A stretch of DNA of 64,000 nucleotides from positions 32,001 through 96,000 of the IMG/VR virus record IMGVR_UViG_3300037067_019204. One strand, 5' to 3'. Below, one piece after another: positions 867-5,165 of this stretch. The DNA is from a virus (taxonomy: Duplodnaviria > Caudoviricetes). The stretch's first letter is position 1, and every line of letters begins with the position of its first letter. The position numbers and the translations under genes are program-made. A model generated the notes under the pieces. It had not been told where the DNA came from. It was given only the letters and a program-made list of their open reading frames with translations, and did no database searches.

Positions 867-2390
867 TTATGCAATATCAATCCTTATATCATGCTTTTTA
901 CAATATTTGTTGATTATGTGCCGATGATCTTTATTCTCAATACTTGTGTTTCTCTTTGCTCGTAATTGAATTACACGATTTTTTCTAATTTCCATATTGT
1001 ATAGTAATTCCCCACATTTTTTATCATATATGCCCAATAGTATGCATTCTTTAGTTCTATATCTATCTGAATAAGAAGCAATACAATTATGCATCATACT
1101 ACCCCAACTAGCTAAATCAGAGGGCTGGTGTGGAACAGTAAACTTTAATTCATCTATATCTTCTTCATATTTATGGAGATCTTCTATCTCATATGGTTTA
1201 TTCCTATCTTTCATCGTTATATAATTCTGTATTTTTGAAAAAGTATCATGCAAATGTTGTGGAGTAAAACATTTTTTTTCTTGTTTTAGTATTTCCATAT
1301 TTTTAAATTCATTATCTTTTTTTATTGTATGATACATCCTAAGTGTATCATAATTATGAGGATAATTCAAAAATGAATTAGATTTTTGTGTATATCCATA
1401 AGATATATCAGGAGACAATGATTCTCGTTTATCATCATCTCTCATTATAAAATCAGCTAATTTATTTTCTGATAATTCTTTTTTAACATCTTTAGCAAAC
1501 ACTTCAAAATGTTCTGGTAATAAAAATAAATTATTAACATGCTCATTATACTCATTACGAGCATTGTAATAATTAAGAATATGTTTTAAAACAGAGGTTT
1601 TTATATCAAGATTATCAAATTGTTTACAAATTATAGGGAGACGATAAAAATCAATTTTTTTGATTGGAGTATCTAATAAATTTCTAACAATAGATTTTTT
1701 GTATGGTAATTCCATAAAGTTAATTAAATCTTTTACAGTAGAAATTTCCATATCTTTAAATATTTCTCTGTGCTTGTCATATTTTAATGAATACAAAAAA
1801 TCAGAACTAAGTTTAAGAATGGGAAAATGATCATAAACCATATAAGCAAAAAATAAATTAACAGGTAATTCTTCCCCAAAAAGATATTCTGATATAGTTT
1901 TATAAATTCTATAGTATTGTTGTTCAAATAATTTAGCATTAGCACCTAATTTATATTTTGTGGCTTTGTATATAAAAGAAATAGGATTATCTACATCAAG
2001 ATAGTCCCAAAATTTAAAAGTTTCACTATCAGAAGATATAAAAGATTCAGGATCAAAAGAAAGAACAGAATTTTTTTCTTTTTTTTCTAGTTCATCTCCT
2101 TTAAATTTAAAGGAACTATTTTTATGAATAATAGAAGCAGATCTTTTATTATTTTCTTCATGTAATTCTAAAATTACTCTTTCAATTTGATCTGAAGCAG
2201 ATATATAAGATGTTGTATTACAATTAGAACAGGAATATAGTTTACTATTAGGAACTAATACTTCTGGAATAAAAAAAGTTTTTTGGCATTCAGTACAATA
2301 TACTGTACTTCCCAAAGAGCTACGTTTATTTCTATTTAAAATAAATAGTGGGATAACTTCTTTATTAACTGGAATAGATTCTATAAGCAT
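867..2390 (-). CDS. PcfJ-like domain protein with N-terminal zinc ribbon
   Basis: C-terminal LHD...VPHQPSDLASWGSMMHNCIASY...NMEIR...IQLRAKRN pattern of PcfJ domains; CTEC and CSNC near the N-terminus. Confidence 0.7.
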   Translation of the reverse strand: MLIESIPVNKEVIPLFILNRNKRSSLGSTVYCTECQKTFFIPEVLVPNSKLYSCSNCNTTSYISASDQIERVILELHEENNKRSASIIHKNSSFKFKGDELEKKEKNSVLSFDPESFISSDSETFKFWDYLDVDNPISFIYKATKYKLGANAKLFEQQYYRIYKTISEYLFGEELPVNLFFAYMVYDHFPILKLSSDFLYSLKYDKHREIFKDMEISTVKDLINFMELPYKKSIVRNLLDTPIKKIDFYRLPIICKQFDNLDIKTSVLKHILNYYNARNEYNEHVNNLFLLPEHFEVFAKDVKKELSENKLADFIMRDDDKRESLSPDISYGYTQKSNSFLNYPHNYDTLRMYHTIKKDNEFKNMEILKQEKKCFTPQHLHDTFSKIQNYITMKDRNKPYEIEDLHKYEEDIDELKFTVPHQPSDLASWGSMMHNCIASYSDRYRTKECILLGIYDKKCGELLYNMEIRKNRVIQLRAKRNTSIENKDHRHIINKYCKKHDIRIDIA

Positions 2391-2396
2391 GTTAAG

Positions 2397-2825
2397 TTAC
2401 ATCATTTCATTTAATAATTCACGAACCTTCATTAAACTAATACCTAATTGATTTCTACCCACACCATTAATTTTTCCCCAATAATTGTCTACTGGGCTTG
2501 CTTCTTCAAGATAAGAATCTCCAGTAGCAATCAATTGTTCGGCAATATCTTTATTTTGCGTAAATTTGCATACTAACGCAAAAAGCATTATTTTATCTTT
2601 AACTTGATCCCAATCTTTTCTTAAAGCAATAATATTACCATTTTGTCTAGATAACTTAGGTGTAGGACTTTTTCTTATAAATTCATGGTCAGATTCTGTT
2701 TTTGCTTTATATGCTTGATAAAAATGTTCTGAGGTTGGATATAATTTACCATTACATATAATTTCAGATTTATAAAAATTAGACATAAATCCAAATTGCT
2801 CATTTGTTTTATAAAATTTTATCAT
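2397..2825 (-). CDS. NADAR (YbiA-like) family protein
   Basis: FMSNFY, YPTSEHFYQAYK, RKDWDQVK..IM, KFTQN, LIATG, EASPVDNYWG, GRNQLG..LMKVR. Confidence 0.92.
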   Translation of the reverse strand: MIKFYKTNEQFGFMSNFYKSEIICNGKLYPTSEHFYQAYKAKTESDHEFIRKSPTPKLSRQNGNIIALRKDWDQVKDKIMLFALVCKFTQNKDIAEQLIATGDSYLEEASPVDNYWGKINGVGRNQLGISLMKVRELLNEMM

Positions 2826-2853: not shown

Positions 2854-2939
2854 AAAAAAAGAGGTAAAAAGTTTAAATCGTTGTTTTTTAGCTAATTTAG
2901 TTATAGTTGATAAACAATTTAATCCGTACCTCTTTTTTT
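2854..2939 (-). ncRNA. Y RNA-like stem-loop F (downstream of ro60; ends in U tract, may double as terminator)
   Basis: 5'-AAAAAAAGAGGUACGGAUUAAAUUGU UUAUC ...ACGAUUUAAACUUUUUACCUCUUUUUUU-3'; same GGUACGGA stem and UUAUC motif as the upstream copies. Confidence 0.75.
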
Positions 2940-2943
2940 GTTT

Positions 2944-4560
2944 TTATAGTTTTCCCATACTAAATTGACTAATTATTTGTGGTGCGGCACTATCAAATCC
3001 TACTATATCCAATGAATTTGGATCTTGAGGATCTGCTATAGAAAATTCAGACCCAACCATTCCAACAACAATCATTTTAGCATCTTTAATCCTCTGGTTT
3101 CTATACTCATGCAAGGCTTGCATAGGATGCATCTTCCCAAACCAAGTTTCATTATCTGTATATGTAACAAATACATCAAAATCAAGTTTCCTATCTTTTG
3201 CCCATATCATTGGAACAGAGCAATCAGTTCCAGCAAAAGGAAGATTTCTCATTTTTTGAAGAGTTTGTCCCAATGTCATATCTGGAGTTATGTCCAAATT
3301 AACAAAATTTGTAGAAAAACCCATTACTTCATAATTTTGTTCTTTTCTTGCTGTAACCATAGCCATACAAGCACTAGCTTCACGACAAGTTAATATCCCC
3401 TGTGCTCCAGAAATATAACTATTTGTCATTGAACCAGATACATCTAGCCCAAGAAGATAACGTTTTCCTGTAGATTCAACATTTTTAAAACTTAAATAAA
3501 ACATTTCTTCAAGAGCATCCACAATTTTTTGAACAGGAACCCAAGAAAGTTTTCCTTTAATTCCATGACCCATTGAATATGTCTTCATGGCAATCAAGAT
3601 ATTCAAAGGATGCATTCTACTTTTTTCTACATGAGAAAGATCAGTTAATTTTTTTGTAACTAAATTAATCTCATCAAACTTACCTTTTGAAAGAATTTCT
3701 AAAGAGCTTAGTTTTCCGAGATTACGAACCAAAGCTCCTAAAGGCAAATCATCCAAAGCAGAATTCCATACTTTTGCACGATTCTTTAACTCTGTTGGCC
3801 ATGCTTCATGAGGAATCTTATATTCTTTTATAAGCTTGCAAGCATCTTTTTCAGAAGCGTTTTTAAGTTCTTCTACAGCTTTCAAAAGATTAAATCCTTC
3901 AGAAATCTCACCTTTAACTGCATATTTAAACAATGAATTATGCTTATCAGACACAGGTTTTACGTGCGCAGAACGAAGCACATCACGATGTGTCCATTGG
4001 TTATTTGAACCTTCTACAGTACGACCTTGATACTTGATCATTTGATATTCAAGTTTTTCTGGGGACATGCTATACCAATTAGCTATAGCACTACGCACTG
4101 AACGACCCCAACTTCTCATTGAATCCAAGTAATGCACAAACATAAACAAGTGTGTTCCTATACGGCATACTTTAGGAAGTGCTTGAACAATTTCTTTTTT
4201 AACATCAAAATCTTTGCATTGAGTAAACAATACTGCTAACAAATAGATTGCTTGATCATTTTTAGGTGCACGGCCCTCATCAGAAATTTTAACTATTGTT
4301 TCAAGAACACGCTTTGGGTTTTCATTAATACAAGCAATACAGTTTTCTATATTAGCTTTAGTCAAATCATGTTCTGAAACATAATATGTTCCACCCTCTG
4401 AAGAAAGGATAAGAAATCTTTCCAATCTTTTCCATTTGTCAATAATGAAGGTATAACCACCTGCATTATTCATAGCCATTTCTTTTTCACGACCCGGAAT
4501 GGGCTTATATTGAGGTGTTCTCTTGTTATTAATTTGATGTTTTGTGTAATTGATAGCCAT
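2944..4560 (-). CDS. rsr: Ro60/Rsr RNA-binding protein (TROVE + vWA domains)
   Basis: NNAGGYTF...RLERFLILSSEGGTYY, CRIGTHLFMF, KYQGR...WTHRDVLRSAH, ALVRNLGKL, SRMHP; vWA MIDAS LDVSGSM, GTDCSVPM, TDNET, GFDS; AAGGAG RBS at 4568-4573. Confidence 0.96.
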   Translation of the reverse strand: MAINYTKHQINNKRTPQYKPIPGREKEMAMNNAGGYTFIIDKWKRLERFLILSSEGGTYYVSEHDLTKANIENCIACINENPKRVLETIVKISDEGRAPKNDQAIYLLAVLFTQCKDFDVKKEIVQALPKVCRIGTHLFMFVHYLDSMRSWGRSVRSAIANWYSMSPEKLEYQMIKYQGRTVEGSNNQWTHRDVLRSAHVKPVSDKHNSLFKYAVKGEISEGFNLLKAVEELKNASEKDACKLIKEYKIPHEAWPTELKNRAKVWNSALDDLPLGALVRNLGKLSSLEILSKGKFDEINLVTKKLTDLSHVEKSRMHPLNILIAMKTYSMGHGIKGKLSWVPVQKIVDALEEMFYLSFKNVESTGKRYLLGLDVSGSMTNSYISGAQGILTCREASACMAMVTARKEQNYEVMGFSTNFVNLDITPDMTLGQTLQKMRNLPFAGTDCSVPMIWAKDRKLDFDVFVTYTDNETWFGKMHPMQALHEYRNQRIKDAKMIVVGMVGSEFSIADPQDPNSLDIVGFDSAAPQIISQFSMGKL

Positions 4561-4580
4561 AGCTAATCTCCTTTTATAAA

Positions 4581-4649
4581 TTTAGGTCAAGTAGTTGTAA
4601 TGGAATTGCATCACCCAAATGTAGATAACCCATCACGTCCGTACCTAAA
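4581..4649 (-). ncRNA. Y RNA-like stem-loop E
   Basis: 5'-UUUAGGUACGGACGUGAUGGG UUAUC ...CCAUUACAACUACUUGACCUAAA-3'; ends pair; 3' CUUGAC strand as in Y RNAs; immediately upstream of the ro60 RBS. Confidence 0.85.
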
Positions 4650-4655
4650 AACCTA

Positions 4656-4783
4656 TGGCCAAAGAGTTGGACTCGAACCAACGACCCACAGTTTCCAATG
4701 ATAACCCTATTCTCCGTGCATTTCTGCCAAGTTGTTGAAAAGGGAAATACAACTGCTGCTCTACCAACTGAGCTATCTTTGAC
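4656..4783 (-). ncRNA. tRNA-shaped Y RNA D (Ro-binding stem replaces anticodon loop)
   Basis: acceptor GUCAAAGA/UCUUUGGC(CA); D arm GCUC AGUUGGUA GAGC; stem GCAGUU/AACUGU; insert CCCUUUUC AACAA CUUGGCA GAAA UGCACGGA GAAUAGGG UUAUC; T arm GUUGG UUCGAGU CCAAC. Confidence 0.85.
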
Positions 4784-4790
4784 ATGCATA

Positions 4791-4870
4791 TTTGGTAAAT
4801 TTTTTTTGATCAGAAAGTTCTTTTCAGAACAACCAATTTCATGTTGATAACTGATCAAATCCGTACCAAA
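4791..4870 (-). ncRNA. Y RNA-like stem-loop C
   Basis: 5'-UUUGGUACGGAUUUGAUCAG UUAUC ...CUGAUCAAAAAAAAUUUACCAAA-3'. Confidence 0.82.
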
Positions 4871-4873
4871 ATT

Positions 4874-4998
4874 TTCCGTGGGTTGGACTTGAACCAACGA
4901 CCCCTTCCTTACAATGGATAATCCTCTTTCATTCGTACATTACTGTCAAGTGGTGAAAAAGGAACTTTAAGTGCTCTACCAATTGAGCTACCACGGAA
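4874..4998 (-). ncRNA. tRNA-shaped Y RNA B (Ro-binding stem replaces anticodon loop)
   Basis: acceptor UUCCGUGG/CCACGGAA; D arm GCUC AAUUGGUA GAGC; insert UCCUUUUUCA CCA CUUGACA GUAA UGUACGAA UGAAAGAGGA UUAUC; T arm GUUGG UUCAAGU CCAAC. Confidence 0.85.
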
Positions 4999-5007
4999 TA
5001 TATACTA

Positions 5008-5072
5008 CAGGTAAAATTTATACTATTCGGGGGGTATCTCTTGACTTGATAACCGAATAGAATCCGTACCTG
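5008..5072 (-). ncRNA. Y RNA-like stem-loop A
   Basis: 5'-CAGGUACGGAUUCUAUUCGG UUAUC AAGUCAAGAGAUACCCC CCGAAUAGUAUAAAUUUUACCUG-3'. Confidence 0.82.
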
Positions 5073-5080
5073 ATATTTTC

Positions 5081-5109
5081 ATATAATATAAATATTAAAT
5101 ACTTGTCAA
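5081..5109 (-). promoter_or_regulatory. probable promoter of the Y RNA-ro60 operon
   Basis: TTGACA at 5109-5104 followed by AT-rich -10-like sequence (TATTAT/TATATG); spacing imperfect. Confidence 0.5.
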
Positions 5110-5130: not shown

Positions 5131-5165
5131 AAAAAAAGCGGTGGATTTTAAGGCCCACCGCTTTT
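5131..5165 (-). terminator. intrinsic terminator
   Basis: AAAAGCGGTGG-loop-CCACCGCTTTT with U7 on the minus strand. Confidence 0.8.

What the first reader, a model, noticed from the sequence alone, without database searches (positions are those of the whole stretch)
2854..5109. Phage Ro60 locus with a six-member Y RNA array in strict simple-Y / tRNA-Y alternation
Seen: on the minus strand the order is promoter, Y-A (5072-5008), tRNA-Y B (4998-4874), Y-C (4870-4791), tRNA-Y D (4783-4656), Y-E (4649-4581), RBS, ro60, Y-F (2939-2854), NADAR, PcfJ. The upstream units are 3-9 nt apart. All six share a (G/U)G(U/C)ACG(G/A)A strand, an upper helix and UUAUC directly after it. The helix sequences differ between copies but stay paired, i.e. 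covariation within one genome. Established: Ro60 binds a bulged Y RNA stem, and bacterial and phage rsr genes usually have one or a few adjacent Y RNAs. Inference: this is a polycistronic cassette in which tRNA-shaped members act as punctuation, so RNase P and 3' tRNA-processing nucleases would release the simple Y RNAs. One Ro60 would then have several interchangeable RNA adaptors with different loops.
Basis: partly seen in the sequence, partly recalled or inferred. Interest (0 to 1): 0.93.

Follow-up and report, generated by a model that had tools for sequence, protein, structure and literature searches.

The report
Phage Ro60 operon, six Y RNAs
A large uncultured phage carries the gene for the RNA-binding ring protein Ro60 with six partner "Y RNA" genes; two of them are built like true tRNAs whose anticodon arm is replaced by the Ro60-binding hairpin, a widespread arrangement I could not find described.

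Summary
All six units exist at the stated coordinates on the ro60 strand. They share the handle (G/U)G(U/C)ACG(G/A)A, an upper helix and UUAUC: 6 matches against 0.05 expected by chance.

Four units are simple hairpin Y RNAs. Two are tRNA-shaped, with a 7-bp acceptor stem, D arm and T arm. Their anticodon arm carries the same Ro handle, capped by a GNRA loop. This reverses the topology of published YrlA, whose ends lie in the Ro stem and whose acceptor stem is closed.

An 88%-identical Ro60 relative has the same six units, with compensatory changes. A 68% relative has Y, tY, tY, Y, ro60, Y, so strict alternation is not conserved.

With strict criteria I found 84 tRNA-topology Y RNAs in 47 of 245 Ro60 loci from phages, metagenomes and bacterial MAGs. 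I found no paper describing them, and Rfam's YrlA model does not reach them.

The "tRNA punctuation" idea is plausible, but it is neither new nor general. Deinococcus makes a Yrn2-tRNA-Yrn1 precursor, Mycobacterium YrlA is cut by RNase P, and many arrays lack tRNA-shaped spacers.

Earlier notes of this scan reported similar Ro60-linked RNA arrays on other DNA.

Verdict: a real Ro60/Y RNA system, and a new variant of a known kind.

The parts
5134..5165 (-). Intrinsic terminator of the upstream small transcription unit; it marks the 5' boundary of the Y RNA operon
   Evidence: Terminator scan: 12-bp stem, 6 GC pairs, followed by a T run. Identical in L081.
5083..5109 (-). Promoter-like site, TTGACA-15 nt-TATTAT (inferred)
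   Evidence: Read. The same hexamers and spacing are in L081. The consensus scan did not list it because of the 15-nt spacer.
5006..5074 (-). Y-A, simple hairpin Y RNA: lower stem CAGGUA/UACCUG, upper helix CUAUUCGG/CCGAAUAG, then UUAUC
   Evidence: R1 62.9 bits. Fold z-score -3.0. Compensatory change in L081.
4874..4997 (-). tRNA-Y B: acceptor stem, D arm, then upper-helix 3' strand, CCAC, UUGACA, GUAA loop, UGUACGAA, upper-helix 5' strand, UUAUC, then variable region, T arm and acceptor stem; discriminator A, no CCA
   Evidence: Rfam tRNA 48.3 bits with a 62-nt insert. R2 124 bits. The minimum-energy fold equals this structure. ARAGORN finds it only when introns are allowed.
4790..4871 (-). 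Y-C, simple Y RNA with a longer, branched loop
   Evidence: R1 42.5 bits, E 5e-8, not in the training set. Rfam sbRNA RF01656 25.8 bits, below threshold. Compensatory change in L081.
4658..4782 (-). tRNA-Y D: same build as B, with a GAAA loop, UGCACGGA and a 5-bp anticodon-stem remnant; discriminator C
   Evidence: Rfam tRNA 44.2 bits with a 58-nt insert. R2 117.8 bits.
4581..4649 (-). Y-E, simple Y RNA with both strands of the metazoan-type Ro helix (GGUACGG / UUGACC); it lies 20 nt upstream of the ro60 start codon
   Evidence: R1 71.4 bits. sbRNA RF01656 24.7 bits. A simple Y is the last element before Ro60 in 83 of 165 loci.
4568..4573 (-). Ribosome-binding site AAGGAG
   Evidence: Read.
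2944..4560 (-). ro60 (538 aa; TROVE ring plus vWA domain)
   Evidence: Pfam vWA_Ro60 1.8e-65 and TROVE 3.5e-35. Full-length matches to solved RO60 9nen (4.6e-113), Rsr 2nvo and Xenopus Ro60 1yvp. phrog_850.
2854..2934 (-). Y-F, simple Y RNA in the ro60 3' UTR. Its lower stem (GAGGUA/UACCUC) is followed by a U run, so it probably also serves as the ro60 terminator
   Evidence: R1 38.2 bits, not in the training set. Fold z-score -5.4. The same element with two double compensatory changes follows ro60 in L081, and one follows ro60 in L001.
2397..2825 (-). NADAR-domain protein (downstream neighbour; link to the system not shown)
   Evidence: Pfam NADAR 1.7e-30. Also follows Y-F in L081.
867..2390 (-). 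PcfJ-like protein (downstream neighbour; link to the system not shown)
   Evidence: Pfam PcfJ 1.4e-14.

Best explanation
This is a phage Ro60/Y RNA operon. One transcript probably starts at the promoter-like site near 5083-5109. It would carry Y-A, tRNA-Y B, Y-C, tRNA-Y D, Y-E and ro60, and end at Y-F, whose stem plus U run acts as the terminator.

All six RNAs carry the same Ro60-binding handle:
- a bulged lower helix, GGU-A-CGG paired with UUG-ACC;
- a covarying upper helix;
- UUAUC.
So each can load onto the phage Ro60 ring (inferred from homology, not shown).

B and D are the functional counterparts of YrlA: a Ro handle joined to a tRNA body. Here the RNA has true tRNA topology. The free ends lie in a 7-bp acceptor stem, and the Ro handle is a GNRA-capped hairpin in place of the anticodon loop.

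Because of this topology they should be matured like the phage's own CCA-less tRNAs: RNase P at the 5' end, RNase Z or exonucleases plus the CCA-adding enzyme at the 3' end (inferred). As a by-product these cuts would separate Y-A, Y-C and the Y-E-ro60 part of the precursor.

The different distal parts, four different loops and two tRNA bodies, would let one Ro60 form several RNPs with different partners. This is as proposed for bacterial and animal Y RNAs. The partners themselves are unknown.
For: - Ro60 identity.
- Six units with a shared handle, 6 observed against 0.05 expected.
- Independent recovery of Y-C and Y-F by a model not trained on them.
- All 176 R1 matches in 164 other Ro60 loci lie on the Ro60 strand next to the gene.
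- Covariation of the simple-Y structure: 94.0% of cells paired against 69.6% in shuffles, and 15 of 18 pairs with changes on both sides.
- Covariation of the tRNA-Y structure: 90.7% against 63.9%, and 31 of 32 pairs. Acceptor, T, upper and lower helices all covary among the 8 seed sequences.
- Rfam's tRNA model spans B and D end to end with a 58-62-nt insert. G18, G19 and the T-loop UUC...A are invariant.
- The same six units occur in L081 (88% Ro60) and five in L001 (68%), there directly after tRNA-Gln inside a tRNA operon.
- None of the 20 phage tRNAs, nor B or D, encodes CCA.
Against: - There are no expression, end-mapping or binding data.
- The promoter is only promoter-like, with a 15-nt spacer.
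- Thermodynamic support is modest for D (z-score -0.14) and for the whole precursor (z-score -1.1). In the whole-precursor fold, D's acceptor stem and part of Y-C mispair.
- L081's unit B has one uncompensated mismatch in its lower helix.
- Y-E and Y-F cannot get their 3' and 5' ends from tRNA enzymes.
- Models R1 and R2 were seeded from this clade. Alignments fitted to a model lean towards its structure.
Confidence: 0.72

Rival explanations
1. Punctuation model. The tRNA-shaped units exist mainly as processing signals that release the simple Y RNAs, which are the true Ro60 adaptors. Alternation is the design principle.
For: In the window and in L081 each tRNA-shaped unit sits 3-10 nt from a simple Y on both sides. 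tRNA punctuation of a Y RNA precursor is known in D. radiodurans.
Against: B and D carry the complete, covarying Ro handle themselves. The order varies among relatives: Y-tY-tY-Y, tY-tY-tY-Y, Y-Y-Y. Only 19 of 167 simple Y RNAs have a tRNA-shaped unit within 30 nt downstream, and 18 abut another simple Y. Y-E and Y-F lack a downstream tRNA-shaped unit.
Confidence: 0.12
2. B and D act independently of Ro60 as tRNA decoys or substitutes. For example, they might soak up host tRNA-targeting defence nucleases or tRNA-binding enzymes, with the insert merely making them uncleavable.
For: Large phages carry tRNA arrays. B and D keep tRNA tertiary-contact nucleotides and lie about 5 kb from the phage's 20-tRNA region.
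Against: The insert is not arbitrary. It is the same handle as in the neighbouring simple Y RNAs, in permuted order, down to the CAAC..UUGAC 3' strand and UUAUC. All 84 strict examples came from loci chosen only for encoding Ro60. Of the 84, 80 lie on the Ro60 strand and four, in L174, on the opposite strand.
Confidence: 0.08
3. B and D are decaying or intron-containing tRNA genes, and the resemblance of their inserts to Y RNAs is incidental.
For: Rfam tRNA scores exceed the gathering threshold.
Against: No 7-nt anticodon loop can be formed after removing the insert. The insert has no group I intron features. The structure is conserved with compensatory changes across Ro60 loci of 40-88% identity. 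B and D resemble each other more than any of the 20 phage tRNAs.
Confidence: 0.03

Closest known systems
YrlA-type bacterial and mycobacteriophage Y RNAs with Rsr/Ro60 (Chen et al. 2014, PMC4201824; Rfam RF02553; structure preprint 10.1101/312249)
   Same: Encoded next to ro60 on the same strand. A Ro-binding 5' motif is joined to a tRNA-like D arm, T arm and acceptor stem. There is at least one tRNA-like and one simple hairpin Y RNA per genome. They are processed from a common precursor.
   Different: In YrlA the order is Ro 5' strand, V, T, closed acceptor stem-loop, D, Ro 3' strand, with the ends in the Ro stem: a 'circularly permuted tRNA'. B and D have the ordinary tRNA order. The ends lie in a 7-bp acceptor stem, and the Ro helix is closed by a GNRA loop in the anticodon position. 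RF02553 scores at most 15.8 bits here (cut-off 69). Both strands of the Ro helix and UUAUC are kept, whereas only the 5' strand is recognisable in Salmonella and Mycobacterium YrlA.
Mycobacterium smegmatis YrlA/YrlB (PMC4201824)
   Same: A 7-bp acceptor stem, cleavage by RNase P and CCA addition. Two Y RNAs are made from one precursor upstream of rsr.
   Different: There, the cut opens a closed acceptor loop and leaves a two-piece RNA. Here, the acceptor ends are the natural transcript ends and the RNA would remain one piece.
Deinococcus radiodurans Yrn2-tRNAAsp-Yrn1 precursor (PMC4201824)
   Same: A polycistronic Y RNA transcript in which a tRNA lies between two Y RNAs. Both strands of the metazoan-type Ro helix are kept.
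   Different: The intervening tRNA is an ordinary decoding tRNA without a Ro handle. There are two Y RNAs, not six.
Vertebrate Y RNAs and nematode sbRNAs (Rfam RF01656; Kowalski and Krude 2015, PMC4726728)
   Same: A GGU(C/A)CG(A/G) / UUGAC(C/U) bulged lower helix, an upper stem, and UUAUC at the start of the loop. RF01656 gives sub-threshold matches to Y-C and Y-E. It gives above-threshold matches to simple Y RNAs in L026, L054 and L170.
   Different: Phage-encoded, transcribed by a bacterial-type polymerase, in an operon with ro60. Some members carry a tRNA body, which animal Y RNAs lack.
Thermus phage phiLo phiRo60 with Yrl1 and Yrl2 (PMC12135203)
   Same: A phage Ro60 with Y RNA-like genes just upstream. 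Binding, and a ternary complex with host PNPase, were shown there.
   Different: Two simple Yrl RNAs defined by a CGAA motif. No tRNA-topology members and no array of six.

Membership tests
Ro60/Rsr protein (TROVE ring plus vWA) | TROVE HEAT-repeat domain followed by a Ro60-type vWA domain, full length | tested here: met
   Pfam PF05731 3.5e-35 and PF25045 1.8e-65. Alignment over residues 15-537 to solved RO60, Rsr and Xenopus Ro60, E 1e-106 to 5e-113.
Y RNA (Ro60-bound non-coding RNA) | Encoded close to ro60, on the same strand | tested here: met
   All six units lie within 520 nt of ro60 on its strand. All 176 R1 matches in the other loci are on the Ro60 strand.
Y RNA (Ro60-bound non-coding RNA) | Bulged helix with a conserved 5' strand (GGUCCGA / GNCGAA type), supported by covariation | tested here: met
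   KGYACGRA in all six units. Lower and upper helices are 94% paired with changes on both sides. Helix 5 of the tRNA-Y model is 90.5% paired.
Y RNA (Ro60-bound non-coding RNA) | Physically bound and stabilised by Ro60; accumulates as a discrete small RNA | not testable with these tools
   Needs co-immunoprecipitation or EMSA, and RNA-seq or Northern blots.
YrlA (Rfam RF02553; Chen et al. 2014) | tRNA-like D arm, T arm and acceptor stem joined to the Ro motif | tested here: met
   The Rfam tRNA model aligns B and D over positions 1-71. G18, G19 and T-loop nucleotides are invariant.
YrlA (Rfam RF02553; Chen et al. 2014) | Order is Ro 5' strand, V, T arm, closed acceptor stem-loop, D arm, Ro 3' strand; RNA ends in the Ro stem | tested here: not met
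   The order in B and D is acceptor, D arm, Ro 3' strand, GNRA loop, Ro 5' strand, T arm, acceptor. A cross-unit 'canonical' reading fails: B's 3' acceptor strand pairs 3 of 7 with D's 5' strand, against 7 of 7 with its own (read).
YrlA (Rfam RF02553; Chen et al. 2014) | Score at or above the Rfam gathering threshold (69 bits) | tested here: not met
   The best match in the whole genome is 15.8 bits, on a true tRNA. The match at window 4581-4707 (3' part of D plus Y-E) is 12 bits. The model also missed the Ro60 loci of four named phages, so it is narrow.
tRNA (Rfam RF00005) | Cloverleaf with 7-bp acceptor stem, D arm and T arm | tested here: met
   48.3 and 44.2 bits, against a threshold of 29.
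tRNA (Rfam RF00005) | Anticodon stem with a 7-nt loop bearing an anticodon | tested here: not met
   The loop is replaced by a 58-62-nt structured insert. ARAGORN in default mode finds no tRNA in the window.
Nematode sbRNA / metazoan Y RNA (Rfam RF01656) | Score at or above the gathering threshold (38 bits) | tested here: not met
   Y-C 25.8 bits and Y-E 24.7 bits. Related simple Y RNAs in L026, L054 and L170 do pass, at 38.4-43 bits.

The most novel reading that the evidence does not exclude
The tRNA-topology Y RNAs are a distinct, widespread and undescribed class. They would be matured exactly like tRNAs (RNase P, RNase Z, CCA addition). The product is a one-piece Ro60-bound RNA with a free, possibly chargeable CCA end, which could dock Ro60 onto tRNA-binding machinery. 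Tandem copies, as in L001, L043, L066 and L177, would be the evolutionary intermediate from which the circularly permuted YrlA arose, by reading from one Ro 5' strand to the next Ro 3' strand. This is the 'dimeric tRNA' origin suggested in preprint 10.1101/312249. In addition, conservation of the animal-type handle including UUAUC would mean that UUAUC belongs to an ancient Ro60-related module, not to an animal-specific DNA-replication motif.
Probability: 0.25. Interest if true: 0.8.

Novelty: new variant of a known kind. Interest (0 to 1): 0.6.

Why it matters
What the tRNA-like module of bacterial Y RNAs does is an open question; the authors of PMC4201824 say they do not know its partners.

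A natural version with ordinary tRNA topology and free acceptor ends is a clean substrate. It can be used to ask whether RNase P, RNase Z, the CCA-adding enzyme, modification enzymes, synthetases or EF-Tu act on Ro60-bound RNA.

Six handles on one operon give a compact system for testing whether one Ro60 swaps RNA adaptors.

The class is common: 84 strict examples in 47 Ro60 loci. Current annotation either misses these RNAs or calls them odd tRNAs, so a dedicated covariance model would improve the annotation of phage and bacterial genomes.

The animal-like handle with UUAUC in phages and bacteria also bears on whether prokaryotic and animal Y RNAs are homologous. A 2015 review (PMC4726728) denied this.

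Tried and rejected
- A blastn search of the locus against 50,697 phage records found nothing.
- A single-protein locus search in IMG/VR found nothing. An alignment-based search was needed.
- Rfam YrlA RF02553 gave no useful match in the genome or in 20 Ro60 loci including four named phages. The model is narrow, so this is weak evidence on its own.
- The R2 match in Streptomyces phage Beuffert (L162:137-277) looked like a tRNA-topology Y RNA in a cultured phage. Reading the sequence showed two adjacent canonical YrlA-type units (T arm, closed acceptor hairpin CCACG/CGUGG, D arm). The match was a chimera across their junction.
- After that I tightened the criteria: acceptor 7 of 7 with at least 5 Watson-Crick pairs, T stem 5 of 5, and a Ro hairpin loop of at most 12 nt. 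I discarded about 100 looser matches, many of them Verrucomicrobia-type tandem canonical units.
- I tested the same alternative reading for the window itself, a giant canonical YrlA spanning B to D, and rejected it on acceptor pairing.
- Two review articles (PMC10870794, PMC6047535) and the supplements of PMC4201824 are not held. My statement that the tRNA-topology form is undescribed therefore rests on an incomplete literature search.
- One search was wasted on a mistyped threshold. One search timed out and was redone.
- No host could be assigned.
Full report
**What is there**

The window is part of a single 161,311-bp, 30.8% G+C virus contig. That contig carries 20 tRNA genes just upstream of the window.

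On the minus strand, reading 5' to 3', I find the following.
- An intrinsic terminator at 5165-5134.
- A promoter-like TTGACA-15 nt-TATTAT at 5109-5083.
- Five tightly packed structured units between 5074 and 4581.
- An AAGGAG ribosome-binding site.
- A 538-codon gene at 4560-2944.
- A sixth structured unit at 2934-2859, ending in a U run.
- Genes with NADAR and PcfJ domains.

The 538-aa protein is an unambiguous Ro60. It matches Pfam TROVE and the Ro60-type vWA domain. It aligns over its whole length to solved RO60, Deinococcus Rsr and Xenopus Ro60, with E-values of 1e-106 to 5e-113.

**The six units**

The pattern KGYACGRA-N6-14-TTATC occurs six times in the window. Simulated sequence gives 0.05. 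The rest of the genome has one more copy, which is a CRISPR spacer.

A, C, E and F are hairpins with four parts:
- a lower stem carrying GGUACGG;
- a bulge or internal loop;
- an upper helix whose sequence differs in every copy;
- UUAUC opening the terminal loop.

A covariance model built without C and F recovered both, at 42.5 and 38.2 bits.

Rfam's tRNA model matches B and D end to end, at 48.3 and 44.2 bits, with a 62- and a 58-nt insert where the anticodon loop should be. ARAGORN sees no tRNA there unless introns are allowed.

**Topology of B and D**

Read in order, each has these elements:
- a 7-bp acceptor stem;
- a normal D arm;
- a short anticodon-stem remnant;
- the 3' strand of an upper helix;
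- CCAC or AACAAC;
- UUGACA or UUGGCA;
- a GNRA tetraloop;
- UGUACGAA or UGCACGGA;
- the 5' strand of the upper helix;
- UUAUC;
- a variable region, a normal T arm and the acceptor 3' strand.

Neither has an encoded CCA.

The insert is therefore the same Ro handle as in the simple units. Its two strands are joined at the end where a simple Y RNA has its termini. The tRNA body sits where a simple Y RNA has its loop.

Published YrlA RNAs have the opposite arrangement. Their termini lie in the Ro stem, the T arm comes before the D arm, and the acceptor stem is closed by a loop. They are described as resembling circularly permuted tRNAs (PMC4201824; preprint 10.1101/312249).

I tested the alternative that B to D form one large canonical YrlA. 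B's 3' acceptor strand pairs only 3 of 7 with D's 5' strand, against 7 of 7 with its own partner. Acceptor stems also covary within each unit across relatives.

**Relatives**

The Ro60 protein has thousands of homologues. Using an alignment of the closest 30, I fetched:
- 80 IMG/VR loci;
- 80 metagenome loci;
- 80 bacterial genome (MAG) loci;
- four named phages.

L081 (88% Ro60 identity) has the same six units in the same order, with compensatory changes in the helices of A, C, F and D.

L001 (68%) has tRNA-Gln, Y, tY, tY, Y, ro60, Y inside a tRNA operon. The array is conserved but the alternation is not.

The simple-Y model R1 gave 92 and 84 matches in the two sets of loci. Every one lies on the Ro60 strand, just upstream or downstream of the gene. 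The structure is 94% paired, against 70% in shuffles, with changes on both sides in 15 of 18 pairs.

The tRNA-Y model R2 gave many matches of 118-145 nt scoring 60-89 bits, well above true tRNAs, which reach at most 54 bits. Its structure is 90.7% paired, against 63.9%.

**A false positive and the stricter count**

One R2 match, in Streptomyces phage Beuffert, turned out to be a chimera across two adjacent canonical YrlA units.

I therefore required:
- an acceptor stem paired 7 of 7, with at least 5 Watson-Crick pairs;
- a T stem paired 5 of 5;
- a D stem;
- a Ro hairpin with a loop of at most 12 nt.

Under these criteria 84 RNAs in 47 loci pass: the window, 20 viral contigs, 12 metagenome contigs and 14 MAG loci. 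Most show UUGCCC, a 4-8-nt loop, GGGCCGA and then UUAUC or UUACC.

Rfam's tRNA model independently spans many of them.

None of the four cultured phages examined has one.

**Array size and order**

By my models, among 165 loci (the window plus L001-L164; the MAG loci were not tallied) the number of confident Y-type RNAs per locus is:

| Y-type RNAs per locus | Loci |
|---|---|
| 0 | 35 |
| 1 | 70 |
| 2 | 34 |
| 3 | 12 |
| 4 | 9 |
| 5 | 3 |
| 6 | 2 |

The two loci with six are the window and L081.

The orders vary freely. The most constant feature is a simple Y RNA as the last element before ro60, seen in 83 of 165 loci.

Only a minority of simple Y RNAs have a tRNA-shaped neighbour within 30 nt. 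Eighteen directly abut another simple Y.

**How it probably works**

- **Shown:** the gene content, the shared handle, the two topologies, conservation and covariation.
- **Inferred from established knowledge of Ro60 and Y RNAs:** each RNA binds the phage Ro60 through the handle, and the different distal parts recruit different partners.
[quoted passage not shown] These cuts also free Y-A, Y-C and the Y-E-ro60 segment.
- **Inferred from Y-F's stem plus U run, conserved in L081 and L001:** Y-F probably doubles as the ro60 terminator.
- **Speculation:** Y-E lies 20 nt before the start codon. It may stay on the mRNA as a 5' leader and allow feedback by Ro60.

**Comparison with what is known**

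The system is a member of the Ro60/Y RNA kind. Multiple Y RNAs per genome, a polycistronic precursor and a tRNA inside such a precursor are all published (PMC4201824).

Three things I could not find in the papers I could search:
- the tRNA-topology form;
- an array of six;
- an animal-type two-stranded handle with UUAUC in phage and bacterial Y RNAs.

UUAUC is known from nematode sbRNAs and vertebrate Y RNAs. A 2015 review called bacterial Y RNAs not homologous to the vertebrate ones (PMC4726728). Here, Rfam's sbRNA model gives sub-threshold matches to Y-C and Y-E, and above-threshold matches to relatives.

Two key reviews were not available to me, so the novelty claim carries that caveat.

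Earlier notes of this scan describe similar Ro60-linked RNA arrays on other genomes, and the same tRNA-Y idea on this genome. I did not use them as evidence.

**Verdict**

This is a new variant of a known kind, of moderate to high interest to people who work on Ro60, tRNA mimicry and phage RNA biology.

Noticed in passing
genome 11960-12400, minus strand (outside the window; the window starts at genome 32001): A CRISPR-like array of at least 7 copies of the 32-nt repeat GTTGCAACTTATACAGGCGTATGTAATGAGAG. One spacer contains GGTACGGAGAACGTGGGTTATCTACA, which is the 5' half of a Y-E-type Y RNA gene. It is close to, but not identical with, the phage's own Y-E and that of L081. It probably targets a rival phage's Y RNA gene. 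Another agent of the scan has already followed this up (note e1-5762237).
   Followed up: partly
window 5319-5130, minus strand: A separate small transcription unit lies directly upstream of the Y array. It has a near-consensus promoter, TTGACG-17-TATAAT (5319-5291), about 125 nt of structured sequence without an ORF call, and a strong terminator (5165-5134). It is about 95% identical in L081. It gives weak sub-threshold Rfam matches to SpF39 sRNA and the L20 leader. It could be a small RNA, or a conditional terminator gating read-through into the Y RNA operon.
   Followed up: partly
L001:4709-4900: Directly after the post-ro60 Y RNA of the 68% relative, a tRNA-Leu-like 5' half (GCCCAAGTGGTGGAATTGGTAGACAC...) is followed by a long insertion. 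This may be a tRNA gene with a group I intron.
   Followed up: no
L162:66-277 (Streptomyces phage Beuffert, record positions about 66523-66734): At least one complete canonical YrlA-type Y RNA (Ro motif, T arm, closed acceptor hairpin, D arm) and the start of a second lie unannotated between tRNA-Ile and tRNA-Ser. They are about 2.2 kb upstream of the annotated Ro-like gene.
   Followed up: partly
L177:4370-6014, L185:4355-5043, L174:5446-6067: Polyangiaceae and Chloroflexia MAG loci carry four to six tRNA-topology Y RNAs in a row beside Ro60. In L174 they are on the opposite strand, on a 2.36-Mb contig. L185 and L225 are also packed with ordinary tRNA genes, so these stretches may be prophages or tRNA islands.
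   Followed up: no
window 4574-4897, minus strand: The 107-codon TTG-start ORF listed here lies entirely over units B to E. It is almost certainly not a gene. Gene callers may annotate it and hide the RNAs.
   Followed up: no
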